Shown here: piece by piece, positions 2,744-64,000 of the stretch
Position numbering within the stretch: the first letter of the stretch is position 1
Layout of the letters: each line of letters opens with the position of its first letter
Source: Isurus oxyrinchus
Taxonomy: Eukaryota
Assembly: GCA_026770705.1 (NCBI GenBank)
Contig: JANJGN010000042.1
Span: 1,054,001-1,118,000 of the forward strand
Direction: 5' to 3'
DNA length: 64,000 nt
The notes under the pieces: generated by a model
The model's input: only the letters and a program-made list of their open reading frames with translations
Told to the model about the DNA's origin: nothing
The model's database searches: none
Translations under genes and position numbers: made by a program

Positions 2744-2791
2744 ACTATAACAACTACGATGGGGCTGGCACGGTGCTGACTGTGAACTCTG
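2744..2791 (+). CDS. IgNAR: IgNAR J segment (YNNYDGAGTVLTVNS)
   Basis: VNAR FR4 motif Y-D-G-A-G-T-V-L-T-V-N (GxG) and a phase-1 donor G|GTAAGT at 2791/2792. Confidence 0.95.
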
Positions 2792-25420: not shown

Positions 25421-28400
25421 TTACTTGTTCACTGACATCACCGTTAGGCCACCAGCTCCCTATATCACTTATAGAATATGGGTGTCAACTGCCCAAACAC
25501 TAAGCTCTACACATGCATCGTTAAACCTGTGCGCTGCTTTTACCTATCTCTGCTACTTCAAGAAGCACATTAAAGAAACGATATTTTACAAAGATTTGTT
25601 TACTTGACCTGATTGGATCTTCCTTCACTTGGCATCAGGTGCTGTCTGATTTTGCTCCTGTAAAACACCTCGAGGCTTTTTCCCCACGTTTCTCGTGCTG
25701 CAAAGCTGCAACTTGATGTTGTTGTGCAATGAATGATCGATTTGTATAATTTCCAAAGATCGCATTCGGAGATACGCATTGATTTGAAATTATCCCCGTA
25801 TTTTTATTTTTAATCATAGCGGACATCATTAACATTTCCCTGGCTTCTGAATCAGAAGGTTGTGGATTAATCTCCTTTCCACAATTCTGGCACTTGATCG
25901 AGGCTCATATTGCAGTCGAACGGTGTGAAGGGTAGTGAAGTCTCAGTGCTGCTGTGTTTCATTTGAAAAGCATATTCTTGACCCGATCCGATAGTTCCGG
26001 CGCATGTTGAAGACTCCATGCAGAATTGCAGGAGCAGTGATATCTTCCAGAGTCTGTTATCTCTATTATATCCAGACACAGCATTATATAGACTGGCTTC
26101 CTATTTGCTCCTTTAGTTTTTTTCGGGGTGTTATTTTAGTTTAACGTGCTGTGGACTCAAACACTAAAGTATTTAAATTTTTGAAAAAGTATTATTATTT
26201 CCCCATGAAGTATTTGGGAAATTCTGAATCAGTGAAAGGTTACCTATGAAGCAGGGCATGACTTTGTTGCCACCATCGTCAACCTTGCTCAGCTCACATA
26301 ATTTAGCACACAATCTGTCCGTATGTCCAATGCGAAGCGGAGGCACCAAGAACTGATTTTTCAAGGAGAATCTCAGTCTGCAGTAAATCAACTGGTCGCA
26401 TTCGTGTTGCCAATAGTTACCCTGTTTTTTCTTCCCCCTTGTTTACGTGCATCAGGCCGCTATTCATTGTGCCCTGTTGAAAAATACACTGAAATTAAAG
26501 GCGCAGATCAGAGAGTTGGTTGGTAGGTCTCCTTACCAGGCAGTCCACAAACATCCTCGGAATCTGAAAAAGACCCAATAAAGTTTCGATGGGCAAACAA
26601 AAACATGTCAACCAGGGATCATTGCACAATTCACCTTCTGGACAGTGCATTCTGTTATACTGGGTTTACTAAGTGAGAAACAGAGCAGGGGTACAATACT
26701 TCATCCATTGTTGATCTGAAATCTCAGCCATGTCATCGAAAAATGTATGCATGGCCATGTAGAGAATATATGCCCAGGTGACTGTATTGATGTACCTGCC
26801 CAGAGTTAAGCAAATGTTGCTGAGTCTCTGAACCTCCAGTAGTTGGAGCTGCTCTTTTATGTCTTGTGGGATCACTCCGTGCTGGAAAACATCTCGCTGA
26901 GTAAAGGAAGCAGTCTTCTAAAGGGTCTGGCATCTATCGATGTTGGATGCTCATAGAGTGGCAGTTATCCAGGAAAAGAAGGAGGCCATTCGGCCTATCT
27001 ATCTGCCAAGTGTTTGGTGAAGCTGTGGATATTACACGTAATATCCCCTACTTGGCACACGTTCAAGTGCAATAGGTAAGTGAACACAACTTATATCCGT
27101 GTCCTGCACAATGTCAGTCTTTGAATTATCTCGGTACTATTCAGTTGCGTTGACTCGAGTCCGGTTGAACAGCTTAAACAGCTGGTCTTACTCCAGTACA
27201 GATATTTCTGTAGATTGCCTGATCCTACAATGCTTCATCAGCTCATATATATGAAGGGCTCATAGCCTGGTAGAATTCAAGGTAGAGTAGGTATTGTAGG
27301 ATCGACAATTTTTTCGAATTGTAAAATTGGAAGGTCTTGTTTGGTTGTTTAGAAAACGAGGCTTGTCTATCATTCAACTCTCATAGAGGGGAAACAAGCA
27401 TTTGATGAGAACGATGAATTTGGTAAAATATGACAATGTTTATTCTTTTGGTGCAGGGACACATAAAATTACGATGCTTCTGCATTCACTTAAGCCACCT
27501 GCGCTCAATACAAATCGAAAAATCAGCCAGTGGGATAGCTTGCAGAATTAGAGAGTTAGTAGTGACACGTTCAGGGGATTGAGGGAATTGTTAATGTCAC
27601 CTTTAACCAGGCGCTCACAGTTCTACCCCACAGGGTAACCATCCCTATGGTGCTATTGTGACATAATGCTGGAGCTGCCATAGGGAAATATACGACACAA
27701 TGTATTACAGAATTCACAGGACCTTAGTAACCGTGTAACCAGAGAATTGTAAACATAATATATCGCGATAGTCATAGCAAAGATGTTGATACTGCAATGC
27801 TGACGTCATCAATAACAATCCAATCTGATGACATTGGGTAAAGAGTAATGCTGCTGTTCCGATTATACTGTCAATATATATGCACCTTAACCGGTTTAAA
27901 TACTGTGAAATCATTTGTTTCTACCGACGAATGATCTTTGCCGTAAAATGTCAATACCTCCTGAGAGGTGAACATAAACTGTGCCGATGAGGTGCAGCTG
28001 AATCTTGAGTTGAAATGTGACTCCGCCCTCATTTGCCTGATGATCTCCTGGTTAGTGTAGCCTGTGAAATGCAAGTGATTCGAGCCTGAGTCCACCTTTC
28101 TATTCAGATCAGTGCCGAATTCGCCTTCTAAATAGATTTTTGATTATTTTGGTGTTAGCGGCTGCTAAAAGAGTAAAAATAAACTTCAGTCACAGGTGAA
28201 TGATCATTTTTCATGGAACGGTGCAAATAATGCAAACATTATCATTTAAAATAACTCCTCTATCCAAGGTGCGCTGTATGACCTCGATTTTCACCCCCAA
28301 CAATCATACCGTGTTTTCAGAAAATTACTTCAATCGACTTAAGGTCTTTTCATGTGCCCTGCCAGCTGCCGCCTTTATGTTATATCGAGTCTATATTCAA

Positions 28401-28440
28401 CCTGATCTCATTTATAACACAGTCCGTTTATTTATTCTAG

Positions 28441-28598
28441 AACTCCCTCAAATAATGGAAGGTATGGACGACCAATTAGTAGAGGAAGACGGATTAGAAA
28501 ACTTCGATGAGGATGTAGGCACTGCATCAACAGTAGTCGCTTTCGTCACTTTGTTCATTCTAAGTATGATATACAGCTCGTACGTGACAGTCCTTAAG
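28441..28598 (+). CDS. IgNAR: IgNAR transmembrane exon TM1 (functional copy)
   Basis: Acceptor TTTATTTATTCTAG| is in phase 1. Encodes (E)LPQIMEGMDDQLVEEDGLENFDEDVGTASTVVAFVTLFILSMIYSSYVTVLK, an acidic spacer plus the antigen-receptor TM (CART) motif FxxLFxLSxxYS. Phase-0 donor AAG|GTAAAG. Confidence 0.93.
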
Positions 28599-29170
28599 GT
28601 AAAGATGGTTCACAGTAGTATCGAGAAAATGTGTAAATTTATTCAGCAGTTGAGCTTCTTACTGAGATATAGCAAAGATACAGATGAACTAAAGATTTCA
28701 ATATTTGCATAATTTCAACCTTTCCCACAGTGTCAGGTTGAGTTTCATTACTAATTTCCATCTACATATTTTATAAGCCTCCCTATTAAGAAGATTGAGG
28801 AGAAGACTTAATGCATAGTAATATTATTGCCACATTAAGGAGCGGAATATGTCAATAATGAAAAAAAGTGCATTGTTTCTAGATTCTGGATCTTTAAGCT
28901 AATGATCAGAAACAATTGGTGATGTGATGACAAATCTCATGTATTGAGCATGAGGTTTCTGAAGTCATGCGAAGTTTTGTCTGAGAGAAAGGGGAAAGCA
29001 CAAGCAAAGCATTTGCATGGAAACCTGGATCACTGTAAAGAGTTGAAGAAAGTATTGATTGCAAATTGATGGTTGATGGATCAATGTGAATAGATGAGAA
29101 AATCACTTATTATGATTGCTGGGAGGTGGGATACAGTGGGGTTGAGGAAAGCTCTAGCTCACAATGATGT

Positions 29171-30874
29171 CTTCACGGTGGAAGACATGAGTAACCTCCC
29201 CAAAGTTCAAGAGAGTCGGAGGGTGGGGTGGGGGGGGGGGGGGGGCAGAGGTGAGTATGCTGCCATTACCAAGGAGAAGGTGCTTGGAAAACTGAAAGTT
29301 CTGAAGGTGGATAAATCACCTGGACCAGATGGATTACACCAAAGAATTCTGAAGGAGATAGCTGAAAAGACAGTGGAGGCGGTTGTTCGTGATCTTTCAG
29401 GAACCACTCGAGTCAGGGAGGGTCCCAGAGGACTGGAAAATTGCAAATGTAAGCCCTCTGTTTAAGAAGGGAATGACGCGAAAGATGGGAGATTACAGGC
29501 CAATTAGCCTGACCTCGGTCATTGGTAAGATTTTAGAGCCCAATATAAAGGTTGAGATTTCAGAATACTTGGAAGTGCATGGTAAAAGGGCAAAGTCAGT
29601 ATGGTTTCATCAAGGGGAGGTCATGCCTGACAAATCTGTTAGAATTCTTTGAGGTTGTAACGAGTAGGTTAGACAAAGGGGAGCCAATGGATGTTATCTA
29701 CTTGGACTTCCAGAAGGCCTTTGACAAGGTGCCGCACAGGAGGGTGCTCAATAAGATAAAAGCCCATGCTGTTAGAGGCAAGCTACTAGCATGGATAGAA
29801 GATGGTTGTCTGGCAGGAGGCAGAGAGTGGGGATAAGGGGATCCTTCTCAGGATGATGGCCGGTGACTAGTGGAGTTCCACAGGGGTCAGTGTTATGACC
29901 ACAACTTTTCACTTTATACATTAATGAACTCGATGAAGGAACTGAGGGCATCCTGGCTAGGTTTCCAGATAATACAAAGATAGATGGAGGGACAGGTAGT
30001 ATTGAGGAGGCGGGGAGGCTGCAGAAGGATTTGGACAGGTTAGGAGAATGGCAAAGAAGTGGCAGATGGAATACAACGTGGGGAAGTGCGAGGTCATGCA
30101 CTTTGGTAGGAAGAATAGAGGCATAGACTATTTTCTAAATGCGGAGAGAATTCAGAAATCTGGGGTGCAAAGGGATTTTCTTAAGGTTAACTTGCCGGTT
30201 GAGTGGGTAGTTAGTAAGGCAATTGCGATGTTGGCATTTATTTTGAGAGGACTAGAATATAAAAGCAAGGATGTGCTGCTGAGGCTTCATAACGCTCTGG
30301 TCAGACCACATTTAGAACATTTTGAGCAATTTTTGGCGCTGTATCTCAGGAAGGATGTGCTGGCCCTGGAGAGGGCCCAGAGGAGGTTAACAAAAATGAT
30401 CCCAGGAATGAAAGGCTTAACATATGCGGAATATTAGAGGTCTCTGGGTCTATACTCTATAGAGTTCAGCAGGATGAGGGGGGATCTGATTGAAACTTAC
30501 AGAATACTGAAAGGCCTGGATAGAGTGAACGTGCGGAGGATGTTTCCATTAGTAGGAGAGACTAGGACCCGAGGGCACAGCATCAGAGTAAAGGGAAGAC
30601 CTGTCAGAACAGAGATGAGGAGAAACTTCTTTAGCCAGAGAGTGGTGAATCTATGGAATTCATTGCCACAGAAGGTTGTGGAGGCCAGGTCATTCAGTGT
30701 ATGTAAGACCGAGATAGATAGGTTCTTGATTGGTAAGCTGATCAAAGGTTGCAGAGAGAAGGCGGGAGAAATGGTTGAGAAACTTATCAGCCAAGATTGA
30801 ATGGCGGAGCAGACTCAATAGGCCGAGTGGCTTAATTTCTGCTCCTATGTCTTATGGTCTTATGGTCTTATGGT
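29171..30874 (+). mobile_element. Relatively young 5'-truncated CR1 LINE present only in copy A
   Basis: Motifs KSPGPDG, PEDWKIANVSPLFKKG, YRPISLTSVIGKILE, DVIYLDFQKAFDKVPH, FFSQRVVNLWNSLP. Tail (TCTTATGG)3. Flanked by TGT/TGT. The empty site is at ~47681-47683 in copy B. Confidence 0.93.
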
Positions 30875-31249
30875 TGTGAGGTGAATCACTGTGAAATGAT
30901 TAGGATAGTGTAACATATGAAATGATGGGAAATGGATCACTGTGGAGAGATGAGGAAAGCAGTCACTATGGAAGAATAGGAGGTGATGTGGCCGTTGGAG
31001 AGATGAAAACAAACATTGACTATGGAAGATTACCAAACAGGAACACTGTTAACAGGTGAGAAGGGAATTGACTACGGAAAGAATGAAGAAAATGTTAGGT
31101 TTTCAATCGATAAGCAAATAATACAAATTGGTTGGCACAAAAATCCACAATCATAGAAAAATGAACTATAGATCTGGGCTTCAATTTTAGCAAATGACAA
31201 CAGTTAAGGTTAGGATTAAACCGAAGAGGAAAGATTATGTCAAGAAGAA

Positions 31250-34200
31250 GACAAAGGGAAGTTTGTGGCGCTCACCATCCTCCTTCATTCATTCAGATAG
31301 TGGCTGATCTGTGTTTTAGCGAATTAAGCATACCTTGCCGTCATGTTTATTAATATGCCTAACTAACAAAGCTCTGTCAAACGCAGTTAAATTGGAATCC
31401 AACCTCGACATTTAAATTTCCTTTTAGGCTGTGGGGAAAGTCTTAGATTGTGTCCAGCCAATGTGTAAAGAAGTGCTCCCTCGATTCGTCCCTGAAGTAG
31501 CCAAATCTACTTTTAAGTTTTTTTTTCATGTTGTTGTCATATGGTAGATTTTTGTTTTTAAATTATTACTATATTAACAGCCATACCAAGTAATTATTTA
31601 AGCAACTAAAGTAGTTCATCCTGTAATATTCAAGGCAACACAATCCAAATGTGAAGATCATGTTAGCATAATTTTAACCGTTTTATAACCGGTGTCTTTC
31701 TGGTGAATCCCTGTTCCATCCCTGCACGCACTTCCTGATGTGGGCTTCCCAGAACCGAACACAGTAACGAAAGCTTTGTACAACAGAGAAAATAGGTCTA
31801 CTGCTTTGTATTCCACCTGCCCCACGCGTGGGATTAAAGCAAACTGTCCATTTGCTTCTTTACTTATTTGTATTTCTTTCCCACTAACTTTAAGGATTTC
31901 TGTAGTTGTAAAGCTAATTATTCCAGATGTTCTATAGTTTTAATCGTCTCATTGTTAGAAAATAACAATCGTATATCTTCCTTAGTTTCAGACTAGATGA
32001 CCTCAGGTTTCCACAGGCAAATTTACCTATCATTGTGCAGAGCCTACCCCAATCCCCCATTGATTTAATATTAGGAAGACCGTTTGTGACTTTCTGCTCT
32101 TTGCTGTGCTGCTTAAGTTAGCATTGTCAGCTAACTGAGATGTATGGCTCTCTATTCCGTCTTCACAAACCACTGACAAGCATCACAAAAAATCTACATC
32201 CCAATTCAGAGGACTCCCTTGCAGAGATAATTAGCTGACTATTCTAACACTGGAAGCTCTTTCCATTATTTACTAAAATCTACTCATAATAGTTTATATT
32301 CCAATATACCAGGTTTTCCAGTGCCAATACATAACTGACATTTTTATTCCTGGTGCCATTCCAGTAATTCTCATTGCTGTTGTCACTAAGCCTTTACATC
32401 CTGCAGGGTAGTGGTCAGAACTGGAGGCAATACTGATCCATAGTTGGTGGAATATTCCCCACCTCTGGCGCGAGGGGAGCTGACGTGTAGGTCAACTGCA
32501 TAATGTTATCCTATTTTTGGACAGGGCGTGTCATTGATAAGCTCCCATTCCCCTGTAACTAGACCCATATCAAAGCAGAACTGGAACGTTGTGTCCAGAC
32601 TATCTGTAATTGTAATCCTACTTCACTAATCTGTTTCGGATGTATCCCATCCAGCTGGGTGAATTTTTCACTTTGCGCACTGGCAGAACATTATCTTCTT
32701 CCCCTGCATCTGTGTTTCTCCTCTCTGTTTTGTCTTTCCAGTGTCACCTCCTGATTGTAACATTTGCAGCGTTATCTTCTTCCCTGAAGACATATGCAAA
32801 GTATTAAATTAGTCCCAAAGTCGGTCCCTCTGCCTCCAGAACAGAGTTACCTTTCGCTTTCTAATCGGATCACTCTTACTTTGGCTACACGTTTTCTCTT
32901 TACAAGTTTAGAACAGAGGTTTAGACTCACCTCTCTGTTACCAGATAATCTATTGCGAAATGCTCTTTGCCACTTTTACATAAGCTCTTATCACTACCTT
33001 CGTGTGCTTTGTGAAAATAAACTATAACCACTCAGAGAGCCTCCTTTTGTTAATTTAGTGTTTTGCTTTCAGTCTTTCATTTCAATCCATTTGGAGCACG
33101 TCACCTTTCCATTCAACGAAATTAACGCCACCTCCGTTGAATATTGTCACAAATGATTAGTCCTACGAATCCATATGTACTTTAAACATAATAATATTAT
33201 CAGTCGTTTCCCATATTATCTCCGTCTGCTACATGATTCACTTAATTCCTTAGAGCTAGATTCGCCACCGCTTCCTTCCTTGCTGGGAGGTAAAACACAG
33301 TGACCACGAGAACAATCTTCTCTACATTGCAGGAGTTCCTCCATGTCTTTTTGTTTGATACTGTTTCATTCAGCCTCATATAATAAATGATGCCCCCTAT
33401 CGCCAATACGCTGAATGCCTCGCAAATTTCTGTGATGTTCCTGTAGTTTTGCTCCTCCATTTCCTCCCCACTATGTTGTGGTCCATAGTATACACCTAGC
33501 ACCTAATAGTCTTTTCTGCTATTCATCAGTTCTACTGAAACAAATTCCGTGTTTGAACTCTCAAGTGCACCAACACTTTCTCGTACTTAAAAAATATATT
33601 TGATAAAAGTACCACCCTCCCTCCTTTTTCCCTTCCTCATCTTACCTCAAAGCATTGTCGACATGATTACAAAATTGTTATTTCTTCCTTCATCTCACCT
33701 AGTTCTCTGTTATTGCCGTTACAACATAATACTATATGGCCTCTCGTGCCTGCAGCCCAATGATGTTAATTAAAATTTACCGGGAATTAACACACATGGA
33801 CACAACGTGATCGTGGATTGTTTTGCAATTCTTCTTTTATTAACCCTTCTAACTCGGAGCTGTACTTCAATCAAATCCAGTTTGTGTATTTACGCTCTCT
33901 GCAACTTTTCTCTGCCCTCTAATTCTTCATCTGCTGGGTGGGGAATGGACCACCTCTGCCATTCTCATTTAAACCCTCCGCCACGATTTGGTTATTATTT
34001 CTGCGACGGCATTGATTCCAGTCCTCTTTGTGTGCAAGGTGGCCACCTTGTTCAGGTCCCAGCAACCCCTCAAATGGCCCCACTGGCCCCATATTTTGAA
34101 GCATCTTCTGAACAGTTTCACCACTCGTACATTAACCTGATTTATGTTGCTGCTCTTGCACTAACTGTTCTGTAGCACTGGGGATAATCGGGGGATTGCC

Positions 34201-34720
34201 AACATGAAGGTTGTGCGCTAGGTGCTGAAACTATTTCGGTCTACCTCAATCCTTTCCCTACCTGTATCATTGGTTGAAACATGGACAGTGATATTTGGTC
34301 ATTTTCCTTTCCTTCTCAAAATCTTCTTCATCCACTCAATGATGTTACTGACTTTGGCACAATTGAGGTAAAGTGTAACTCATGTTGGTGGTGGCAGAAA
34401 CGCCGGCCAATTCTGTGGAATATCAGGTTTCCTAACAAACTGCAATCCTCCACTTTGTGATTCACTGACGTGTTTCAATCTCGCCCATAGACACGTGGAT
34501 GATTACTAGACAGCTCTACTCAAAGCCCTGCAAACTGATTTGAATATGTAATAACCCTGGAGGATTCCTGCACTGTGAGCATTTCCTTAACCTATCGGAT
34601 GGCCAACCATTTACAAACATCCTGAACACTGGATCGGCAGGATGACAACCTCCTGTAATTAATGCACTTCAGGAGATTCTGAGGCCCGCAGTAACTCCAG
34701 CTGCTCCTCGGTTAATGTAC
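31250..34720 (-). mobile_element. Old, long degenerate CR1 LINE (ORF1 esterase, endonuclease and RT remnants); paralog at ~48070-51570
   Basis: The reverse strand gives VHVSTNDTGRERIE (ORF1 esterase, VHVGTND-like), LGVYYGP (endonuclease) and DGMHQK/WKLINNVP (RT region, seen in copy B). Boundaries are approximate. Confidence 0.65.
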
Positions 34721-35506
34721 ACGAGTTGTTTGAGTTCCATTGTACCTTACTCATGTTTATTATTTTATTCATGTTGGAAACATGATGTTTATTTATGAAT
34801 ATTGATCCGGGAAATTTTGGTGCTCTCTACTGTGGAACTGTGAACCGAAGTCCCGTTTGCTTACTCAGTCAGAAGCAAACGATCCTATGACACTATTTTG
34901 AAGAAAGGCAAGGAAGTTCTCCCCAGTGCTCTGGTAAACAAATCACTCAATCAACATCATGGAAAGCAGATTATCAGGTCATTATCACATTGAGCTTTCT
35001 GGTAGATTACTGTGTGGAAATGGACTGCCACGTTCCATACATTACAAAACTGATTACAGCTCAGGAGGATTTCACTGGCCAGAAAGCGTGCTGGACGTTC
35101 TGAGGTAGTAATAGCGCTCCATAAATTTGGTTTTTCCTTTTTTACTCAATATTTCTCTCACTTATCTATAATGATTTTCCAACTGTCTATCTGCTTATTT
35201 ATCTATCATTTTGAATAAAGACTTATTCCATAGATTGCACGTGGTTTTATACCCCTCTGTATAATCCAGTAGGAGAGCGACATTTTGGTAGAGCTGGAGA
35301 CAATGGATATGTCTGAAATTAAACAAGTTGATAAATATCAAAATCTGAAAACTTACACCTTCAAGTGTGAACATTTTTAAGTTTCTCTCTCACACTTGAT
35401 ATGTTTCACTCATCTTTCTAGCTTTCCATCTCTTTCCGACTAACCATCTCCCAGCCATCTATCTGTTTATATCTGTATGTATTTAGTAATATTCCTCTCA
35501 TGCATG

Positions 35507-35522
35507 CACACACACACACACA

Positions 35523-35567
<45 letters not shown>

Positions 35568-35585
35568 ACACATACACACACATAC
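35507..35585. repeat. (CA)n microsatellite; shorter paralog at ~52384-52406
   Basis: Read directly from the sequence. Confidence 0.95.
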
Positions 35586-36790
35586 TAGAAAATATGTGGC
35601 ATTCCACAGGGAGCATCGGGAGCAAGTAATGCTTTCACATGTAGAAAGCAAAGGATCATTAGAGCAAGGATATTATTCAGTTCACATTCCAAAGTCATTT
35701 CCTCAGTCCTTATTTCCCCCATGGCGTTGCAAATTCATAAATGCACATTTACAATGTAGATTGCGAACATTCGCTTATTAGGTAGTGATTACAAACAGAA
35801 ACTAACAACAATGTTTTTTCAGCATGCCCGTCCTCTCTGACAATGCTGTCGATCGCATTCTATACTTCAACCAACTGCACTTCTCACCTCCCAAAACTTC
35901 AGTAGGTTTAACCATTCAGCTACAATATTGTTCATGTAACATCAACGTATTTTCTAAACCTTACGTCATGATCCATGATATTAAAATGGGAATGCATATA
36001 CTTACTCACCTTGTGAGATTATACTGCAAAGCAATTCACTGGAATTCGAAGGAACAGAGGAGAGTATATACAATCACTGACAATACTAACCGAGAGGGTG
36101 CATTAGACTTTGAACAGAAAATGGCATTACAATAAAAAGCAGTTTAATTTAGCTTGCGGGTAAATGAATGACAATTTGTGTGCACGTATAAACTATGTGA
36201 GGACCTGATTTAGATGCGTAGGGATAGTCAACGGTAATAATGTGGAAATGGGAAAGCTCTGAACAGATACACAGGAACAACAAAAAAATGTTGACCAGGT
36301 CAATATTTAAGGGAAAGGTACCGGGTGATCAAAATACTGATGCGATGGCATTTCCCTGGTGCAAACATATTGATTAAGCAGCATTTTTTTTTAAAAGACC
36401 ATCGTTCAAATCTCATTTGGAATGCAATGTTCAGATCAATGGAACTGCAGATGGAGTACATTTGGTGCGCTAGGGATCAAGCATTGATTCGTCACATTTG
36501 TTTCCGAAAGTTATATAATTATTGTGGAGTATTTAAAATCAGGTAACAAATAATTCACTTTTCATTTATAAGATCGAGAAGACACACGACAAGTGAGATT
36601 ATCTGCACTTAGGGTCCTGAATGTTGATTGTGGGGGGTAATAACCCAAACCCGTAAAGCTCCTTATCTTTCATGATAGTTATCCAAAGTATTGTTGTTGT
36701 TGTATACCCCGGACTTGTCAGTTGAATTGCACATCATTTTTCTCATTGCGGTACTCACTAGTTTTAATGCTATGCTTTTTTTCACTGCAG

Positions 36791-36799
36791 GTGAAATAG
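36791..36799 (+). CDS. IgNAR: IgNAR TM2 exon coding part (VK*), giving the cytoplasmic tail KVK
   Basis: Strong acceptor GCTTTTTTTCACTGCAG| followed by GTG AAA TAG, in phase 0 with TM1. KVK is the canonical membrane-Ig tail. Confidence 0.85.
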   Translation: MK

Positions 36800-37080
36800 C
36801 AACTGCTTGACCAGTGGTCACTTCAGCTTTATATTCAAAGCTTGTTGACGAAGATCCCTTGGGGCCGGATTGTGTGAGTCTATCAGCGTTAGCAGCTGCT
36901 CCATTACACCACTTCACCTTGTGGTTGCACAATAGTCTCAGCCAATCCGTGGCAACTCTGCTTAATTTGCTTCTATTAGCTCATAAATTAACACTTTCTT
37001 TCTTAAGCAGCAGAGCTAAATAGAATTGTGCATCATTACAACAACCCTGTATGTTCAGCAAATCCCACAGAATCAATTAA

Positions 37081-37086
37081 AATAAA
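37081..37086 (+). terminator. Poly(A) signal of membrane IgNAR mRNA
   Basis: ATTAAAATAAA (overlapping ATTAAA and AATAAA) ~280 nt after the TM2 stop, with downstream TATGTGTT and TGTTTGTTT elements. Confidence 0.72.
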
Positions 37087-37904
37087 TTGAGAAGAAAACA
37101 TTGAATGCCGCTATGTGTTAGTACTACTTTTGAAATAGTATGTTTGTTTCCTGTCTCAATCATTTGTTGAATATTTCATGACAATTTGAATTTGAAAATT
37201 AACAAGAAAAACGCCCTTACCACGTCCGTGAGCTCGCAGACAACCCACCAGGCTTGTCGAACCTGCCCTTGTCCTAGGATGAGTTAAGGCTCGCCGGCTG
37301 TTACAGAAGATCAAAGCATTCACTATAGGAAATGAAAACACGTATGTGAATAATACCAAAAATACATCGTTGAAAGAAGATATGCAGCAATACTAAGCAT
37401 TCATCTGGTCACGGCTTATACTGAAAATCCCATTTTGTTAAGGAAAGACTTTCTCCACTGGCAAATGTTCCAGAATTGTTAATAGACCATATCTGAATGT
37501 GGAAATGATTTAATTAGTGTTGCGTAACTGAGGAAATTTTAAAAACGTTTTGTGCATATCTCACATACAGCTCCCAGAGGAGCACAGCATTGCATCTTTG
37601 CTTACCAGCGCCATGCGAGTAACAGAGACATTATTTTCAGGCACAGTCGCACGGGCTTACATCCTTGTAGAGACCCAATGGAAACTAAAGGCAGACCTGA
37701 CTGATTGTTAGCTACACAGATTCCTGAAAAATATTTTTAAAAACAAAACCCTTGTTTCAACACATGTTTGTGGATTCCTCTGGAAGTTTCTTGCTCTGAG
37801 ATCGCTGATGCCTCCAAATCAATTCCTCTGAAGATCTATTTCTGGCCAATTTTTTAAACATTTTTGAAGAAAATCGTTAAGGGCACAAGAAGGAAGAAAC
37901 CATA

Positions 37905-45155: not shown

Positions 45156-45164
45156 ATACTTTTC

Positions 45165-53100: not shown

Positions 53101-53618
53101 TAAAAGAATTTGTTGTCCAGGTCAATATTTCATTGAAAGCTAGCGGATGATCAAAATACTAATGGGATGGCGTTTTTCTGGTCCAAACATATTGAGTAAG
53201 CAGCAATTTTTAAAGAAACACTATCGTTCAAATTTCATTTGGAATGCAATGTTCCAATCATAGGAACTGCAGATGGACTACGTTAGGTGTGCTAGGAGTC
53301 AAGCAATGATTCACGAGTATCGTCATATTTGTTTCTGAAAATTGTATAATGATAGTGGGGTATTTAACATCCATAACAAATAATTGACTTAAAGATCGAG
53401 AAGACACACAAGTGATATTCTCCATACTTAGGCTTCTGAATGTTGATGGCGGGGGGTAATTCCCAAACCCAGAATGATTGTTATCTTTCACGATAGTTAT
53501 ACATAATATTGTTGTTATTGTTGTTGTTGTATACTCCGGACGTTACAGTTGAACTGAATATCATTTTTCTCATTGCGGTACTCACTGGGTTTTAATGCTA
53601 TGACTTTTTACACTGTAG

Positions 53619-53627
53619 GTGAAATAG
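53619..53627 (+). CDS. IgNAR: Duplicate IgNAR TM2 exon (VK*), sequence-intact
   Basis: CTTTTTACACTGTAG|GTGAAATAG, paralog of 36791-36799. Whether it is used is unknown. Confidence 0.6.
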   Translation: MK

Positions 53628-53907
53628 CAGCTCTTTAACCACAGGGCCCTTCAGCTTTTATTCAAAGCTTGGTGGCGAAGTCCTCTTGGGGACAGATTGT
53701 GTGACTCTATCAGCATTAGCAGCTGCTCCATTACACCACTTCACCTTGTGGTTGCTGCATAGCCTCAGCCAATCCGTGGCAACTCTGCTTAATTTACTTC
53801 TATTAGCTCATAAATTAACACATTTTTTCTTAAGCAGCAGCGCTAAATAGAATTGTGCATCATTACAACAACCGAGTATGTTCAGCAAATCCCACTTAAT
53901 CAATTAA

Positions 53908-53913
53908 AATAAA
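53908..53913 (+). terminator. Duplicate membrane-form poly(A) signal
   Basis: AATAAA within a ~70-bp block identical to 37071-37140. Confidence 0.6.
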
Positions 53914-56900
53914 TTGAGAAGAAAACATTGAATGCCGCTATGTGTTAGTACTACTTTTGAAATAGTAGGATTGTTTCCTGTCTCAGTCATTTTTAAAATA
54001 TCTTATGACAATTTGAATTTGAAAATTAACAAGAAAAACGCCCTTACCACGTCCGTGAGCTCGCAGACAACCCACCAGGCTTGTCGAACCTGCCCTTGTC
54101 CTGGGATGAGTTAAGGCTCGCCAGCTGTTACAGAAGGTCCAAGCATTCCCTTTAGGAAATGGAAACACACATGTGAATAATCCCAAAAATACATTCTCGA
54201 AACAAGATCTGCAGTAATAATAAGCACTCATCTGGTCACCACTTATATTGATAATCTCATTTTGTTAAGGAAAGACTTTATCTACTGGCATTTGTTCCAG
54301 AATTGTTAATAGACCATATTTGAATGTGGAAATTATTTAATTAGTGCTGCGTAGCTGAGCAAATTTTCAAAACGTTTTGTGCATATCTCATATACAGCTC
54401 CCAGAGGAGCACAGCATTGCATCTTCGCTTACCAGCATCATGCAAGTAACATAGACATTGATTTCTGGCACAGTCGCACGGGCTTACATCCTTTTAGAGA
54501 CCCAATGGAAACTAAAGGCAGACCTGACTGCTTGTTAGCTACATAGATTCCTGAAACATATGTTTAAAAACAAAACCCTTGTTTGTGGACTACTCTGGAG
54601 GCTTGTTGCTCTGTGATCCCTGATGCCTCCAAATCAATTCCACTGAAGATCTATTTCTAGCCAATGTTTTAACACGTTTAAAGAAAATCCGTTAAGGACA
54701 CAAGAAGGGAGAACCAATATAACAGGATCACAAAATCATAATGACAAAGAAGGAGGCCTTTCGGCCCATCGTGTCTGCACCGACTCCCCAAATGAGCATA
54801 ACGACCTAGTGTCAGTCTCCTGCCTTTTCCCTGTACCCATGCGCATTGTTTCTATTCAAAACAAATATCCAATGCCTTCTTGAACCTCCATTGAAACTGC
54901 CTCCTCTATAATACCAGGTAGCACCTTCCAGACCCAAACCACTATTGCCTGAAAGTGTTTTCTCCCACGTCACAGTTGCTTCATTGTCCTCTCGTTCTTT
55001 ATCCTTTAATGACCAGCAACAGCTTCTCCTTATCTAATCTGTTCAGGTTCCTCGTGATTTTGAACATCTCTATTAAATCTCCTCTTAGCCTTCATCTCTC
55101 CAAGGAGAACAGTCTGAACCTCTTCAATCTATCCACATAGCTGAAGATTCTCATCCGTGGAACCATTCTTGTAAACCTCCTCTGCACTCTCTCCAATGTG
55201 TTTACATCCTTCCTATAATGTTGCGCCAAGAACTGTACATAATGCTCCAGCTGAGGCCTCGCGAGCGTCATATATAAAATCAGCTAACCTCCGTGCTCTT
55301 GTACATTATACCCCTATTAGCAAAACCCAGTATACCGTTTGCTTCATTAACTTCTCTCTCCACCCTGTCACATTCAACTATCTATGCTCATATACACCCG
55401 AGGCCTTTCTGCTTCTGCACCCTGTTTCCAATTTTATCCCTTATTTAGACTGTCTGTAAATAGTCATCCTATAAAATACAGCACTTCACACTTCTCCGCA
55501 TTGAACTTCATCTGCCACCTACCTCCCCAGTCCATCAACTTGGCTATGTCCTCTTGAAGTTCTGCACTGTCCTCCTCGCTGTTTACAACACTCCCAAGCT
55601 GAGTATCATTCGCAAGCATTCAAATTCACCCCTGCACACCAAGCTCTGAATAATTAAAATATATCAGGACAAGCAAAGGTCCCAGTGCCGATCCCTGGGG
55701 AACTCCACTGCAAACCTCCCTCCAGCTGGTACAATATCAATTGACCATTAGTCTCTGCCTCCTATTTTTTTCACATAATTTTGCATCGACGTTGTTATTG
55801 TCCATTTTATTCCATGGGCAATAACTTTTCTCACATGTCTGTTGATTAGCACTGTATCAAATACCTTTTGAAAGTCCATACACACCACTTAAACAGCATT
55901 ACCCTCATTGACCTTTTCTGTCGCCTCTTCAGATAACTCCAGCAAGTTCGTTAAACACGATTTCCCCCTGAGAAATCCATGCTAGCTCTTGTTTATCAAC
56001 CATTATTTTTGCATGTGACTGCTAATTCCATCTGTAATAATTTTTCTTTCCAGAATCTTGCCCACCGCTTAAGTTAAGCTGCCTGGTCTGTAATTACTGG
56101 GATTATTCTTACCACATTTTTTGAACAGGGGCGTAATGCTTGCAATTCCACAGCCTTTTCCATAAAACATCGTTGCCCAAGTCTAGAAAGTGAATTTTCC
56201 TAATTATACTATTTCAGATACAAACACTGATATTTGATGTTCTGAATAATTACGACATAAACTGAGTGAAAATTATAACATATACGGACAGGTATTTTTT
56301 TTTTGCATTCAGTTAGATCATGGTTGATCTGCACCTTAACGTTGTTGTTCCACATTGGCTCAAGGTCCTTCGTTTACTTTATCTGTAATGGCAATATTTG
56401 CAGTGATTTGTCTAAATGAAATGTTAGAAACATTGGGAACTTACGCCCGTTGCTAGTCATGTGGAGATTGCATGTTCTCAACAATACATTTAATATTCAT
56501 CTTTGTTTTATATGTTGCTACAGTGTTATTATTTAGTCATTATTTTATACTCTGTACACGCAAAGGTTTGGAATATGTGTGATGCTGAAATTCACCGTTG
56601 TTTTTATTTTTTTAAAAAACGAGTGTTCCATCTTTATTTCTAACATTTGTTTAGCTCATACAATTTGTCCAAGTTTCTGATTGCTCCAATTATTAGGTTA
56701 ATGCAACTCACCTGTAAATATCATTAATATAAAACATCAAAAATAGAATAACGAGAGATGCAATTCAATTGAACAATGAGCTTATTAACCCCCACTTATT
56801 ATTGCAGCTATTTAATTGATTAGAACAACATTATCTTGGATGAATGAAGAGAACTTTGGAAATAATCTGGAAAATTTATAAGGTCTAATTATTCAGCAAC

Positions 56901-59900
56901 ATATCAGAAATTTAAACAAGGTCCACAAATATTCTTTAGGTAATGAGTATTCACTCTTAGCAGCTATGTTCTGATAATTAATTTGTTGAATTAACAATCA
57001 TCAATTTACTGAAGCGACGCTTATGATTCAATATAGTTAGATTTATTAACTGCATTCTGTGGGAACATCACTTGAGATGAATAGGCCGTTATGCAACAAG
57101 GAATGAGAGCTTAGTCCTGAACTTGGAGCAGCTGCGAATTATTGATTTATTAATGGCAAGTTGGCTTCTCTGGGTTAAGCAAGTTATTATTGACTATCCC
57201 TAATTGCCCTTGAAAGCTGGTGATGCGCCGCTTTAATGAAATGCAGTTGCCCACTTGGTGGATGTGCAAAAACATTTATGTCAGGAAGGCAGTTAGAGGG
57301 CTTTGGCCCAGCAGCATGGATGCAACAGCAACATATTTCCAAGTCAGGGTGGCGTGTGGTTTGGAGGGTAACTTGCAATCGGTGGTGTTCCATTTCATCT
57401 ACAGACTTTGTCCTTCAAGGTGGCAGAGGTCAAGGGTTTGTTTGCTCTCGATGGACGCTTCGTGAATTGCTGAAGTTCATTTTGTGTTGTATATGCTGCT
57501 GTCACTACCTGTCGCTGATGGAGGGAGTAAATGTTTAAGAGGATGAATAAGTTGCGATTGAAGGGGGCTCCATTTCCTGATGTTATGGAGTTTCGTGAGT
57601 GCTGTTGGAGCTGCATTTATCTGGGCAGTGGACAATATTCCATCACACTCCTGTCTTGTGCCTTGTAGATCGTGGACAGTTCTTGGTGGGGGTGAGGTGA
57701 GTTTCTCACTGCAGAGTTCCTAACCTGTGAACTGCTCTTTTCGCCAAATTATTTATCTGGATGGTACAGTTCAGATTCTCTCCAATAGTAATCCCCACAA
57801 TGTTGATATTGGGGGTGTCAGTGATAGTAATGTCATTGATTCTCAGACGGAAATGAGTAGATTTTCTCATATTGGAGATGACCATTGCCTAATAATCGTA
57901 TCGAACGAATGTTAGTTTCAAATTATCAGCCCAAGTCTAGATGTTGTCCTATTCTTGCTGCCCAAGGCCAGGAGCTGCTTCATTATCTGTGGTGCGGATA
58001 TTCTTGTTTAACCTTGTACAATCAATAGCGAACATCCCCACTTCTGACCTGATGATGGAAGGATGGTCATTGATGAAGCAGCGGAAGATTTATGGGCCGA
58101 GATCACTACCCCGAGGAACTCCTACAGGAATATCCTGGGACTAAGATGTTTGACCTTCAAAAACCACAATGATCTTCTTTTGTGCTAAGTATGACTCTTA
58201 CCAGTTTCCCATTGACACCAGTTTTTTGAGGGCTCCTTAATGCCACACTCGGTCAAAGGATGCCCTGATGTCAACAGCAGTTATTCTCATCTCACCTCTT
58301 TTGTTCAATTCTGGTTCATATTTGGTTCTAGAATGCAATGGCGTTCAGAGTTGAGTAGCGATGATGCAACACAGACTGAGCGTCAATGAACACCTCTTTG
58401 TGACACTGTTGAAAACACCTCCCATCACTTTGTTGATAACCAAGAGTAAACTGATGGTGGGGTAATTGGCCGTGTTGGATTTGTCACTTCTTTTGTGCAC
58501 ATGCTAAAAATAGGAAATGTTCTACTTTTCGGGGTGTATGCCAGTGTTCCAAATACACTGGAACAGTTTGGCTAGGGGTACAGCTAATTCTGGAGGACAA
58601 GACTTCAGCGCAATTGCTGGAATGTTGTCAGGGCCCGAAACCTTTGCAGTTTTTAGAGCCTTCAGCAGCTTTTTCATGAAGTGGGGTGAATCAAATTGGC
58701 TGAAGACTCTCTCTTCTGATGCTGCTGACCTCAAGAGCAGGCATAGTTCAACCATCCACTGAGCATTTCTGACTGAAGATTGTTGCAAATGATTCGGCTT
58801 TGTCTTTTGCACTGATGTTCTGGGCTCGCCTGTTATTGGTGATGAGGGTATTTATGGATTCTCATCGTCTTATTAATTGTTGATTTATCCAAGCCCTTTT
58901 TTTGACTGGATGTGGCAGGACTGCAGACCTTCAATATGACATGTTGGTTGCACGATTACTTACTTCTCTCGATCGCATGCTGTTTCTGCTCTTTGGCAAT
59001 CAAGTATCTTGTGTTCTCTATTCACCATGTTGACACCTCAATTTTAGGCCTGCCTGATTCTGCCAAAGCCATGCCCACCTCAACTCTTTGTTCAACTAGT
59101 TTGGATCCACTGATTTGATGGTAGTGGTGTAGGGGGCTATTTGCTGGGCCCCGAGGTTATAGATTGCGGTTGAATAGATATCCACTGTTGGTGATGGTCC
59201 ACATTGCCTCATAGACTGTCCAGTTTAAAGTTGCAAGATGTATTGGAAATCAATCCCAATAACACGGTGATAGGTGCCATACAACAGGAATCTCTCTGGT
59301 AAGTGTTTCACAAGATAGAATTTAGATTAGAAGTCACTATCTGGTATGAAACCTAGGCATGCTAGTTAAGAAGCCTAGTTAACAGAAACGGCTATGTCAC
59401 GTTCAGTTAACAGTCAGCCAACTGAATGTTGCTACCCGAATAGATGTTATTTACCAAAGCAGAAAGCTGACTTAGCATTTGCATTTTGGTTTGAGCCATC
59501 TGCTCTCTCTCTTTCGAGAAGTATACAGAGTGAGACGACAAAGTGAGATCACAAGGCTTTCCTGCAACGAGGAAAAAAAGCCAATTTGGAAATTTGGTGT
59601 AAGTGGGAAATCAGTGCAAAGGGAGAAGGAGGTGTCCTTTTTGTACCATCTGGGGCCTTCAGTAGCTGGTAGGTTTTTTCTTCTGCCAAAACGCTATGGG
59701 GCATAGCTTGCTATTAGTTTAGCTGTATCGATTAGTATCTATTTTATTGGTTAATTAAATATGATTATTCAAACATGACAGTGATGCTGGTGTGCTGTAA
59801 CTCAAAAACATCAGAATCTGTGGAATGATTGCAATCCTGGAGAACTAAATCTCTTCGAGTGACCTCACCTCTGATCTGTTGAGCAATGTTGTCGTTTCTG

Positions 59901-60559
59901 CGTTACACAGATACCTCAACCAAGAGGATTGGTAACACAATTATGTGGGCTTTTATTTCAAGCAGTGAAACCACATGCGCCTATCTCTGAAAGTCCCTTG
60001 ACAGGTCCTGTCTCTCCAGCTGCTCATATCTTCAGCGTGATGATTAATTGAGCATATGCATCACAATCACTCTGATGGTATATAGTACTTTTAGATACGC
60101 TCCTTAAAGGCATTCCAAAGCAAGCAGCAGCCAGAGTCCCATATGATGTGTCGAATCATGGAGGGGGGATTAGTCCCTGGACATTGTGTTCCAGGAGGCA
60201 CTGTCACCCCTTTATGTCAGGTAGAAAGTTAGAGTCTTTCGATGACCAGAGACAGCGGGTTATGACTGTGAGATAGGCATGGATCAGGATGCTGTGGATA
60301 CTGATGGGAGGTTCTGAGCCCATGAATTTGCCCAAGAGACCGAAGTGCTTGCAACCTATTTGAATGAGCAGAAAGACTGTAGTTTGTAGAACAAAGTGAG
60401 GATGGCTCCAGGGTGCAGGAAAGCATTCAATGGGTGTGGGGTGGTAACGGGCTGCGGAGTAGGGTAGTGGAAATAAATGTAGTACTGCCTGAGCGATGTA
60501 CAGTTAGGTGTAGACGCTGTCATTTGCAGCTGCGGCTTGAAGCTCAGAAGGTTGTGCTT

Positions 60560-61810
60560 AATCGTTGAGGGAGTAACATGTGCTGTCGATGTAGGGGAAC
60601 TGGTGAGTGTTCTGTACTTAGATTTGCAGAAGACATTTGATAAAGTGCTAAATCAGGTGTTATTGCGTAAAATAAAAGCACTCATGGTAAAGGGATAACA
60701 TTTTGGCATGGGTAGAAGATTGACTGGCTAACGGGAAGAAGAGAGGAGGCATATATGGGCCCTTTCAGCTTGGCAGGATGTATCGAGTGTTGTGCCACAG
60801 GGGTCAGTGCTGGCGGTTCAACGATATATAATTTATATAAATAACTTCGATGAAGTGATGGGTGGGAATGTTGCCAAATTTGCTGATGCTGCAAAGTTAA
60901 GTCAGAAACACAGTTGTGAAGAGCACATAATGAGGCTAAAAATACAAATAGATTAACTGAGTGGGAAAAGATCTGGCAAATATACTATAACGTGAGAAAA
61001 TGTGAAATTGTCCATTCTGTCAGGAAGAATAAAAGACAGGCACATTATCCAAATTTTGAGAGACTGTAGAACTTTGAGGTGCAGAGTGGTCTGGGTGACT
61101 TAGTGCCTGAATCATAAAAGGATTGTATGTAGCACATCAGGTAGTTAGGAGAACTAATAGAATGTTATCATTAATTGGGAGGGAATTGATCACATAAGTG
61201 GGGAGGTTACGCTTCAGTTATGCAGGACACTAGTGACACCACACCAGGAATGCTGTACACAGTGTTCATCACGTTTTTTTGAGGAAGGCTGTAAATGTGT
61301 TGGAAGCATTTCAGAGAAGGCTTACCAGGCTAATACATGGAACGGGAGGGTTGTCTAATGAGGATATGTTGGAAAGGCTAGGCTTGTATCCGCTGAAGTT
61401 TAGAAGAGTAAGAGGTGACTGGGCTGAAACATAGAAGGAACTGAGGGGTCTTGACAGAGTGTATTTGGAGAGGATGTTTCCTTTTGTAGGAGAATCCATA
61501 ACTCAAGGTAACTGTTAAGAAAAAATGAGTCGCCCATTTCAAATGGAGGTGATTCGATTATTAATTTCTCCAAGGGGGTCGTACGTCTTTGGTACTCTTT
61601 TCTGGAAAAGGCCTTAGAGGCAGCGTATTTCAACATTTTAATGGTTAAGGTGGACAGATTCTTGGAAAGTATGGGGGTTTTAGGCAATCTCGGGTAGGTG
61701 GGCTGCTGTTTTGAGGTTATTATCAGATAAGTCATGGTCTTATTGATTGGCAAAGCAATTTCGAAGATCAAATAACCTTCTCCCGCTCCTTATTCTTACG
61801 TTCGTATAAC
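60560..61810 (+). mobile_element. Degenerate CR1 LINE within the copy-B-only segment
   Basis: Remnants LYLDLQKTFDKV, VPQGSVL, KFADAAK and a CR1 3' end (CTCCTTATTCTTACGTTCGTAT). Confidence 0.75.
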
Positions 61811-64000
61811 TGCTCGTTTCCAGGGTGAGGGACACTGCCTCGCAGCTTCAGGCAAATGTGAAGTTTCGGGGATGGGGGATGGGGAAAGGGGGAGATCCAG
61901 TTACTGTGGTAGAATTAGGAATCAAGTTCTTCTAAGAGAGCAGTTAGAATTGAAATTAAAATGCAGAACGTCAAAGCCATTCTGACCGACATGATATTAG
62001 CATAGGTTCAAACAGAATAGATAATTCATCTCCTGGCGCAAAGAGTGGTGTGTGAATAAGGGGTTTCAATTCATGGGGTTGCGGCACAAGCACTCACTAA
62101 AGACAGGATTGTTCAATTGGCACAGGCTGTGCTGAAACATGGCTGGTGGCAGTGTCATGGTGAACTGTATAACTAGGGTTTCAGGTAGATCGTCAAATGT
62201 AGTGTGGGAGCAGAGTCGGTGTGAAGGGAGATGTAGAAATATGAAGATAAAACTCAAGGCAATAGAACAAACTAAAAACCAGCAGAGTGGATCAGGAAGG
62301 TGCAAAGAATTGAACAGTAATCCTGCATCAGAAAGTGAAAAAATAACGGCAATAGTAGCCGACATGAAATTAAATTATCCTTATCAGGTTGCAAAAAAAA
62401 AAACACCCACAATACGATAAGTCGATGAACTATTGTCACAAATCGAGATCAATGATTAACAGCTATTCTTCAATACAGAAACATAGCTGCACGGTGAACA
62501 AGGTTGTGAAATAATATTCCAGGCTACGCAATATTTCTAAAATGCAGACTCAATTGCCAAGGGGGACTGATAGTAAATGATGATATAAGGACCTTAGTGA
62601 GCAAGGGCCTTCGATCAGAAGATCATGTAGTGGAATCTGGTTAGGTGAATATTTTGGACAAAGAGAGTGGTGGGAGGAGCTTATACATCCACTAGGAGAA
62701 CCTAACAGTTGCACAGAGCATTAAACAAGAAATTGTTGGAACGTGTCACAAAGGCAATTTAATAAAACTGCCGAACTTTAATCCTCATAAAAATAGGGCT
62801 TAACAAAGTGACAAGGGTCGTCAAGTAGATGCATATTTCTTTGGAACAATGTATTGCGGAAAATTAGACACAGTTAATTATTAATCTCATTGTTAAAGAT
62901 TGGCCGGAACTTGTGACCGTAATGCATTTAACTTCCAATTTAAGCATGAGTGTGACATATTCTACCAAACAGTTGCATTCAATTTAAACAAAACCAATTG
63001 TTTAGAATGGGGAGAGGGCTGGATAAGTGTGGTTTGGGCAATATAATTACAGCAATGGAAGCTAATAAACAGTGGGAACCATTTCAAGAATAATTCAGAT
63101 TTTTCGAAAAAAATCATTCCATTGAAAAACCAAAAACTCAGCAAGAAAAATCACATCCGAGTATTAAGCAGGAAGTTAAGATAGCATCAGATTAAAAATA
63201 GAAACTTATATTGCTGCAAAGAGTAGGAGCAAGGCTGAGGATTGAGATTGTATTACAAACCATGAAAGGGTCAGCTGAAAGTTATTAAAAAGGAGGGAAA
63301 GTATTCAAAGTCAGAGCAAACTAGACAGGAGCATAAAAACCGATTGCAAAAACTTTGACAAGTTAAAAAAAATAAAAGTAGCTGAAGTAAACACCTACTA
63401 GTGTCAGGGGAATTTGTTATGGGGAATGACTAAATGGCAGAGTTACTGAATACATCAGTTGTGTGCAGTGCACAATGGAAATCACAAGATGCTCACCAGA
63501 AGTATTGGTTAACATAAGTGCTTTTAAGAGTGAATAAATTAAGGTAAGTTATATCAACAGAAAAATTACTGAGGAAAAAAACCCGGAAGTCCGACAAGTT
63601 CCCAGGGCCTGTTGGCATATAACCTGGGTGCCTAAAAGTGCCAGAGTCAGTGGATGCCCTGGCATTTAATTTTCGTTCACGGGATGTGGGTTTCGCTGGC
63701 TGGCCAGCATTTATTGCCCATTCCTAATTGCTCTTGAGCTAGTGAGCGAGCTTCTGGAAACTTGGCATTCTGTGTGGTGTAGGTGCACCCACCGTGCTGT
63801 TAGGGAGGGAGCTCGAGGTATTTCACCCAGCGACAGTGAAGGAAAGGCGATATATTTCCAAGTCAGAATGGTGAGTCATGTGGAAGGGAACTTCCAGATG
63901 GTGGCGTTCCCCTATATCTGGTTCCCTTGTCTTTCTAGATGGCAGTGCCTATGTGCTTGGAAGATGCTGTCGAAGGAGCCTTGTTGAATTCCTGCAGTGC

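What the first reader, a model, noticed from the sequence alone, without database searches (positions are those of the whole stretch)
28016..64000. Head-to-tail duplication of the entire IgNAR membrane-exon cassette (TM1, TM2, poly(A)) behind a single V-D-D-D-J-C1-5 unit
Seen: an ~18.5-kb unit starting 425 bp upstream of TM1 is repeated directly, so one IgNAR transcription unit is followed by two TM1/TM2/poly(A) sets. No V, D, J or C exon is duplicated. The copies differ by 13/158 substitutions in TM1 and by two ~1.7-kb copy-specific segments, which is too much for a haplotype mis-assembly. Established: shark Ig genes multiply as whole clusters, and IgNAR membrane forms arise by splicing to TM exons. 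Inference: this is either a local duplication offering alternative 3' ends for the B-cell receptor, or the 3' relic of a second cluster fused in by unequal exchange.
Basis: partly seen in the sequence, partly recalled or inferred. Interest (0 to 1): 0.75.

Follow-up and report, generated by a model that had tools for sequence, protein, structure and literature searches.

The report
Dead spare antibody anchor in shark
A shark antibody gene is followed by an old second copy of its membrane-anchor exons, but that copy carries a frameshift and is likely a dead leftover of ordinary gene duplication; a spliced RNA that likely runs backwards across the region is the more interesting by-product.

Summary
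The duplication is real. An intact V-D-D-D-J-C1-5 IgNAR unit is followed by copy A (28,016-46,489) and copy B (46,490 to past the window end), 12.3% diverged. It shifts the frame, removes the membrane helix and stops at 47,100. A read-derived contig holds this frameshift letter for letter, beside an intact A-type contig of similar depth. A second species has B-type DNA about 4% from B and lacks the extra A, so the duplication is roughly three times older than that species split and the frameshift younger. The one spliced TM1-TM2 contig listed is A-type. The junction is blunt, which argues against unequal exchange; no listed contig bridges it. Verdict: an orphan, decaying membrane cassette, a known kind of debris in shark Ig loci. 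Local duplication versus relic of a second cluster is unresolved. New in passing: RNA contigs show an intron with opposite-strand splice ends across TM1-TM2, pointing to a spliced antisense RNA. The scan's earlier findings held nothing similar.

The parts
967..1009 (+). IgNAR leader exon 1
   Evidence: ATG, GT donor; joins V in frame
1152..1423 (+). VNAR exon, open, followed by an RSS with 22-bp spacer at 1,424
   Evidence: Pfam V-set; RSS scan; 74% to Triakis IgNAR, 85% to the basking shark model
1680..1695 (+). D1 (12-spacer RSS 5', 23-spacer RSS 3')
   Evidence: the 5' nonamer has 4 mismatches
1951..1970 (+). D2 (12 / 22)
2350..2361 (+). D3 (12 / 12); the 5' RSS is weak
   Evidence: 3+3 mismatches on the 5' side
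2744..2791 (+). J segment with 23-spacer RSS
15184..15498 (+). C1
   Evidence: Pfam C1-set; in-frame splice
18308..18613 (+). C2
18701..19018 (+). C3
22478..22798 (+). C4
23243..23625 (+). C5 with secretory tail (penultimate Cys); internal donor after 23,563 for the membrane form
   Evidence: 83% to Triakis IgNAR against 56-65% to IgW
28016..46489 (+). Copy A of the repeated unit
28441..28598 (+). TM1-A, intact, 158 nt
   Evidence: 92% to a basking shark TM1; an A-type spliced RNA contig (record 30)
29165..30871 (+). A-only LINE fragment, likely inserted after the duplication (short tandem-repeat tail, near-match target duplication)
   Evidence: Pfam RVT_1
36791..36799 (+). TM2-A coding part (VK-stop); 3' UTR follows, AATAAA at 37,076
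37221..37321 (-). Likely exon of a spliced antisense RNA, copy A; minus-strand donor after 37,221; no ORF
   Evidence: record 31 (4 differences from B = the 4 A/B differences)
28057..28164 (-). Likely next antisense exon, copy A; acceptor before 28,164; far end unknown
   Evidence: mapped from the joint seen on B coordinates
45170..46489 (.). High-copy repeat cut off at the junction
   Evidence: contig depth about 1e6 in X1 over 45,600-46,481; related copies at 40.6-42.3 kb and 57.4-59.1 kb
46489..46490 (.). A/B junction: blunt, 0-1 nt microhomology, no N gap
46490..64000 (+). Copy B of the repeated unit (continues past the window)
46945..47103 (+). TM1-B, 159 nt, frameshifted by an extra A in the run at 47,000-47,006; stop at 47,100-47,102; donor +3 A to C
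   Evidence: contig X1 record 3 identical over 46,949-47,344
53619..53627 (+). TM2-B coding part, intact; AATAAA at 53,903
54048..54148 (-). Copy B of the antisense exon; donor intact; acceptor at 46,637 intact
   Evidence: joint 46,637-54,048 with CT..AC ends in X20
60381..62068 (+). B-only segment, mostly a LINE fragment; insertion in B or deletion in A not decided

Best explanation
Copy B is an old, 12%-diverged duplicate of the IgNAR membrane-exon region whose TM1 exon is frameshifted, so it is likely a dead orphan, likely made by one local tandem duplication, while copy A likely supplies all membrane IgNAR. Shown: the repeat, the frameshift, B-type DNA without the extra A in a second species, and an A-type spliced TM1-TM2 contig. 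Inferred: a non-homologous break joined a repeat at 46,489 to the C5-TM1 intron at 28,016. The new copy sat behind A's terminal exon and poly(A) signal, so transcripts would rarely reach it; without selection it gathered amino-acid changes and then the frameshift. Odds: B makes no membrane anchor in this species 0.9; B has no role at all about 0.8; origin by local duplication rather than deletion of a second cluster about 0.6.
For: Frameshift and stop. Helix lost: hydropathy -0.27 against 2.13. Present in reads: X1 record 3, 396 bp, 0 differences, depth 186.7, beside an A-type contig at 226.4; the two add up to the total depth 413.1 at TM1. Decay: 8 non-synonymous and 5 synonymous changes, dN/dS 0.43; against the two basking shark TM1 copies, 7 of the 8 fall on the B side (two-sided p 0.07). 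Age: 6 of 8 listed contigs of organism B differ from window B by 98 of 2,349 bases (4.2%), where A and B differ by 12.9%; ratio 3.3 after correction. Both of its TM1 contigs lack the extra A and have the A-type base at 47,001, 47,020 and 47,044. RNA: X22 record 30 joins TM1 to TM2 with 6 and 27 differences from B, where A differs by 6 and 29; both X20 contigs at 47,013 carry the A-type base. No C or V remnant before TM1-B. Incomplete IgNAR clusters are known: 3 of 7 in bamboo shark (PMC8692893).
Against: TM2-B, both its acceptors, its AATAAA and both antisense splice sites are intact. 3 of 8 listed X20 pieces (records 18, 20, 23) are clearly B-type intron sequence in a run guessed to be RNA, so B may be transcribed in organism B (or DNA was carried over). 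The 7-to-1 bias is not significant alone. In organism B the B-type TM1 is intact at the four sites shown, and what lies upstream of it is unknown. Only two RNA runs were laid, both contigs, tissue not on record; contigs drop rare forms. The junction is not bridged by a listed contig. X1 may be the sample behind the assembly, so it is not independent biological support. The layout cannot tell local duplication from a cluster relic.
Confidence: 0.55

Rival explanations
1. B is the 3' relic of a second full IgNAR cluster; a deletion removed its V-D-J-C1-5 and the spacer, and the orphaned TM exons then decayed.
For: Shark Ig genes multiply as clusters, and bamboo shark has three incomplete ones (PMC8692893). 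The basking shark model XP_078391649.1 has a second TM1 upstream of its V, in the same reading direction, so tandem TM-bearing units exist in a relative. The frameshift and at least three amino-acid changes arose after the split from organism B, as expected if the orphaning were recent.
Against: It needs two events, not one. The one informative TM1 residue groups B with the basking upstream copy and A with the basking downstream copy, and the basking upstream copy also looks worn (8 changes from A, including Phe to Ser in the helix), which fits an old orphan better. The intron read-through comparison is a tie. No homology at the junction, so not by unequal crossover.
Confidence: 0.27
2. B is dead as an anchor but kept for regulation: it carries a second copy of an antisense first exon and nearby control elements.
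For: Spliced contig with minus-strand GT-AG ends (X20) and a break at the same donor in X22. The antisense exon differs by 4 of 101 bases and the 139 bases next to it by 8, against 12.3% overall. Identical runs of 103 and 98 bp were reached in 2 of 1,000 column shuffles, both together in none.
Against: Constraint on A alone would already halve the divergence (runs then expected with p about 0.04 and 0.015 in chosen windows). For the 35.7-kb block gene conversion fits better: organism B's second contig differs from B by 37 where A differs by 24. The X22 antisense piece is A-type. The Ets-IRF-like motif (recalled consensus) at 37,328 is broken in B and occurs 6 times in the window.
Confidence: 0.08
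3. B gives functional alternative 3' ends: either TM1-A spliced to TM2-B (same protein, other 3' UTR), or C5/C3 spliced to TM1-B giving a soluble chain with a basic tail and a Cys near its end.
For: Acceptors of TM1-B and TM2-B are intact. The new stop lies 1 nt before the last exon junction, so by the recalled 50-nt rule it would escape nonsense-mediated decay. The shifted frame has a Cys four residues from its end.
Against: A transcript would have to skip TM2-A and four AATAAA/ATTAAA motifs within 3.2 kb after it. The frameshift is absent in organism B, so the tail is young and unconserved. The TM1 RNA contigs seen are A-type.
Confidence: 0.05
4. Assembly error: B is real DNA from elsewhere in the genome, joined here by mistake (a false haplotype duplication is excluded).
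For: The left side of the junction is a very high-copy repeat, and no listed contig bridges it.
Against: No N gap. The two sides share no overlap that could mislead an assembler. A and B both stand in X1 at similar depth and in a second species.
Confidence: 0.05

Closest known systems
Incomplete IgNAR clusters of the white-spotted bamboo shark (PMC8692893; section read, figure not seen)
   Same: Partial IgNAR units without V lie near complete ones in one locus.
   Different: Those are described as spatially distant; which exons they keep is in a figure I could not see. Here only TM1-TM2 and flank are kept, abutting the intact cluster's own flank.
IgNAR membrane forms with three or five C domains (PMC5192425, PMC4279169, passages; P0040 is a 3-C example)
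   Same: C3 or C5 splices in frame to TM1-A and TM2-A.
   Different: Known variety comes from the choice of donor into one TM cassette, not from two cassettes.
Basking shark gene model XP_078391649.1 (LOC144673922)
   Same: Closest named relative; two TM1 exons in one model, one well kept and one worn.
   Different: The extra TM1 lies upstream of V and is open in frame; its DNA context could not be read here.
Ig pseudogene clusters of nurse shark IgM (groups 6-8, G2C; PMC2435157, passages)
   Same: Dead copies beside live clusters, as in birth-and-death evolution.
   Different: Those are whole clusters with V; here a membrane cassette alone.

Membership tests
IgNAR cluster (unit at 967-37,081) | One short V, three D and one J with 12/22-23 RSS | tested here: met
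   two of the 5' D signals are weak
IgNAR cluster (unit at 967-37,081) | Five C domains, secretory tail with terminal Cys, TM exons; closer to IgNAR than to IgW | tested here: met
   (C5 83% to Triakis IgNAR, 56-65% to IgW)
IgNAR cluster (unit at 967-37,081) | Rearranges and is expressed | tested here: inconclusive
Functional Ig membrane cassette (copy B) | TM1 in frame with C, with a hydrophobic helix, spliced in frame to TM2 | tested here: not met
Functional Ig membrane cassette (copy B) | Found in spliced mRNA | tested here: inconclusive
   no B-type TM1 RNA contig among those shown in two runs; contigs cannot show absence
Incomplete IgNAR cluster / pseudogene fragment (copy B) | No V, D, J or C of its own | tested here: met
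   within the window
Incomplete IgNAR cluster / pseudogene fragment (copy B) | Disabling lesion that is not an assembly error | tested here: met
   X1 record 3 identical across the A run
Product of unequal crossover (non-allelic homologous recombination) | Long homology shared by both sides of the breakpoint | tested here: not met
   0-1 nt; no match of 26,000-28,015 to the junction's left side
False (haplotype) duplication of an assembly | Near-identical copies, confined to one assembly | tested here: not met
   12.3% divergence; both types in a second species
Tandem duplication (as opposed to cluster relic) | No relative in which the second cassette has its own V-C5 | not testable with these tools
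   no genome held; shark genomes are not among the searchable collections
Known structured RNA family (antisense exon) | Rfam match at gathering score | tested here: not met
   0 matches in the window; one chance-level hit, E 0.55, in 35.5-37.7 kb

The most novel reading that the evidence does not exclude
Shark IgNAR clusters carry a spliced antisense RNA that starts just behind TM2 and runs back across the membrane exons, a regulatory layer not found in my literature searches. The duplication copied its start site and both splice sites; copy B lost the anchor but is kept as a second antisense or enhancer module, and in the related species B may still be a working second membrane anchor.
Probability: 0.1. 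Interest if true: 0.65.

Novelty: new member of a known kind. Interest (0 to 1): 0.32.

Why it matters
As it stands, modestly. It dates a partial Ig-cluster duplication and catches its decay between two species. It also warns annotators that orphan TM exons produce fused gene models, as in the basking shark record. The antisense splice (about 0.8 likely real, function unknown) gives a testable handle on how shark Ig clusters control membrane versus secreted forms or cluster exclusion, about which little is known.

Tried and rejected
No genome of this window is held, so no third copy or flank beyond 64,000 could be sought. The look-up of sequencing runs listed no RNA holder on record; this is no evidence on expression. 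TM1 protein searches were thin: 1 hit of 21 candidates, 0 of 1, 1 representative. tblastn with the first 285 residues of the basking shark model, its receptor-like part, found nothing in the window, so that model's upstream TM1 could not be tied to B by context. A four-sequence comparison of TM1 has one informative residue, and the intron read-through is a tie; no tree was built. Pfam named 1 of 7 repeat ORFs; the family of the repeat at the junction is unnamed. Rfam: nothing. Motif scan with recalled consensus sites: no canonical octamer, kappaB or MEF2 site near TM2; one Ets-IRF-like site in A, 6 in the window, so weak. Contig depth over the antisense exon was high in X20 (bin mean 798), but the tool states that contig depth does not measure expression, so it is not used. 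A joint for TM1-B to TM2-B was not among the 15 joints shown (91 hidden). Earlier findings: one unrelated note on mutually exclusive exons, none by sequence. No structure or complex prediction was run; it would not bear on the question.
Full report
The gene. The window holds one intact IgNAR unit on the + strand: leader, V, three D, J with recombination signals of 12, 22 and 23 bp spacing, five C1-set exons that splice in one frame to a secretory tail, and TM1 and TM2. C5 is 83% identical to Triakis IgNAR and 56-65% to IgW proteins. The closest named relative is a basking shark gene model, 85-95% identical in V, C1, C4 and C5, so the source is likely a lamniform shark (inference). No genome is held for the window.

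The repeat. Self-comparison shows a direct repeat, 28,016-46,489 and 46,490 onward, still homologous at the last base of the window. The copies differ at 12.3% of 15,342 aligned columns, fairly evenly. Each has one segment of about 1.7 kb of its own; A's is a LINE fragment with a reverse transcriptase match. No leader, V, D, J or C remnant lies beyond C5.

What was missed. TM1-B is one base longer: a G-to-A change and an extra A make a run of seven A at 47,000-47,006. The frame shifts before the helix and stops at 47,100; the best 19-residue hydropathy falls from 2.13 to -0.27. A run of A is a classic place for assembly errors, so I laid public contigs on 45,600-54,400 at 90% likeness, 4 of the 24 runs listed. 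In DNA run X1 (same species, about 88% read) one contig equals B over 46,949-47,344 with no difference, and a second is A-type; their depths, 186.7 and 226.4, add up to the total at TM1. The frameshift is therefore in the reads, and no third TM1 at 90% or more is seen. X1 may be the sample behind the assembly.

Age and decay. Organism B, another species, holds a quarter of the sampled words of the stretch. Of its 8 listed contigs, 6 are 3.3-5.1% from window B (98 of 2,349 bases) where A and B differ by 12.9%; records 10 and 14 were left out as A-type, and record 15 is the least clear of the six. The duplication is thus about 3.3 times older than this species split, if rates are equal. Both TM1 contigs of organism B lack the extra A and have the A-type base at three amino-acid-changing sites, so these lesions are younger than the split; the other sites were among 503 rows not shown. 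Of 13 substitutions in TM1, 8 change a residue (dN/dS 0.43); 7 of the 8 fall on the B side when the basking shark copies are used for polarity (p 0.07).

Expression. Two runs guessed to be RNA were laid. X22 (same species) has one contig joining TM1 to TM2 and the 3' UTR; its difference counts match copy A (6 of 6, 27 of 29). In X20 (organism B) both contigs at 47,013 carry the A-type base. No B-type TM1 RNA contig was shown, but contigs drop rare forms and tissues are not on record. Against a wholly silent B: 3 of 8 listed X20 pieces are clearly B-type intron sequence, 4 are ambiguous and 1 is nearer A; unspliced RNA and DNA carry-over both fit.

How it arose. The junction is blunt: a high-copy repeat is cut off on the left, the C5-TM1 intron starts on the right, and 0-1 nt is shared. 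The 2 kb before 28,016 has no match left of the junction. That argues against unequal crossover and for a non-homologous break (inference). A local tandem duplication and a whole-cluster duplication followed by deletion leave the same layout; only relatives can tell them apart. The basking shark model has a second, worn TM1 upstream of V. It shares one residue with B, and the intron comparison ties. I favour local duplication at about 0.6 because it needs one event. No listed contig bridges the junction, so a mis-join keeps about 0.05.

The antisense splice. X20 has one contig joining 46,637 to 54,048 (29 letters on the short side) with CT..AC ends, absent from both DNA runs; X22 has a contig that breaks at the same place and is A-type. 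On the minus strand both copies have a consensus donor and a pyrimidine-rich acceptor. The exon has no ORF and no Rfam match, and it is better conserved between A and B (4 of 101) than its surroundings. I read this as a spliced antisense RNA starting just behind TM2; strand is inferred from the splice ends, and level and function are unknown.

Comparison with what is known. IgNAR lies in clusters of V, three D, J and C exons, and membrane forms have three or five C domains (PMC5192425 and PMC4279169, passages). In bamboo shark 3 of 7 clusters are incomplete (PMC8692893, passages and section 26; figure and supplements not seen, and the figure may show TM-only remnants). Nurse shark IgM has pseudogene clusters (PMC2435157, passages). 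PMC12227049 and PMC5278576 (passages) added nothing on TM duplication. Searches found no report of a duplicated IgNAR TM cassette, and searches 41 and 50 none of an antisense RNA there; the library lacks most subscription journals, including Rumfelt et al. 2004, which I saw only as a reference entry. The 50-nt decay rule and the motif consensus sites are recalled.

Verdict. A real, old, decaying partial duplicate: a new member of a known kind, interest 0.32. The antisense RNA is the lead worth following.

Noticed in passing
window 37,221-37,321 to 28,164 (copy A) and 54,048-54,148 to 46,637 (copy B), minus strand: One contig of RNA-guessed run X20 (organism B) joins 46,637 to 54,048 with CT..AC ends, a canonical intron on the opposite strand with a good donor and pyrimidine tract in both copies; a contig of X22 (organism A) breaks at the same donor with 30 unplaced letters. 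No ORF. Strand is inferred from the splice ends only.
   Followed up: partly
window 35,650-36,150 / 52,470-52,980 and 37,070-37,320 / 53,900-54,150: Two blocks of low A/B divergence (about 4-6%) with identical runs of 103, 98 and 70 bp; gene conversion fits the first, constraint or conversion the second.
   Followed up: partly
protein P0002 (basking shark XP_078391649.1), residues about 283-335 and 1,023-1,075: The model fuses a receptor-like fragment, a worn TM1, then V-J-C1-5 and a second TM1: likely an annotation artefact caused by an extra TM exon upstream of the cluster.
   Followed up: partly
window 46,580, 46,688, 46,788 and other sites in copy B: Run X1 differs from the window at full depth at several sites, with the base that copy A has at these three; either another individual or haplotype, or errors in the window.
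   Followed up: no
window 47,952-48,245 and 51,774-52,067: Raised contig depth in both DNA runs (2,058 and 3,755 in X1): short repeated elements inside the TM1-TM2 intron, not identified.
   Followed up: no
window 37,076-37,249: The A-type TM1-TM2 contig of X22 runs about 170 bases past the first AATAAA and overlaps the antisense exon, so the real poly(A) site may lie further on.
   Followed up: no
window 2,792-15,183: The J-C1 intron is 12.4 kb and holds several LINE fragments; V has one extra Cys in the CDR1 region.
   Followed up: no
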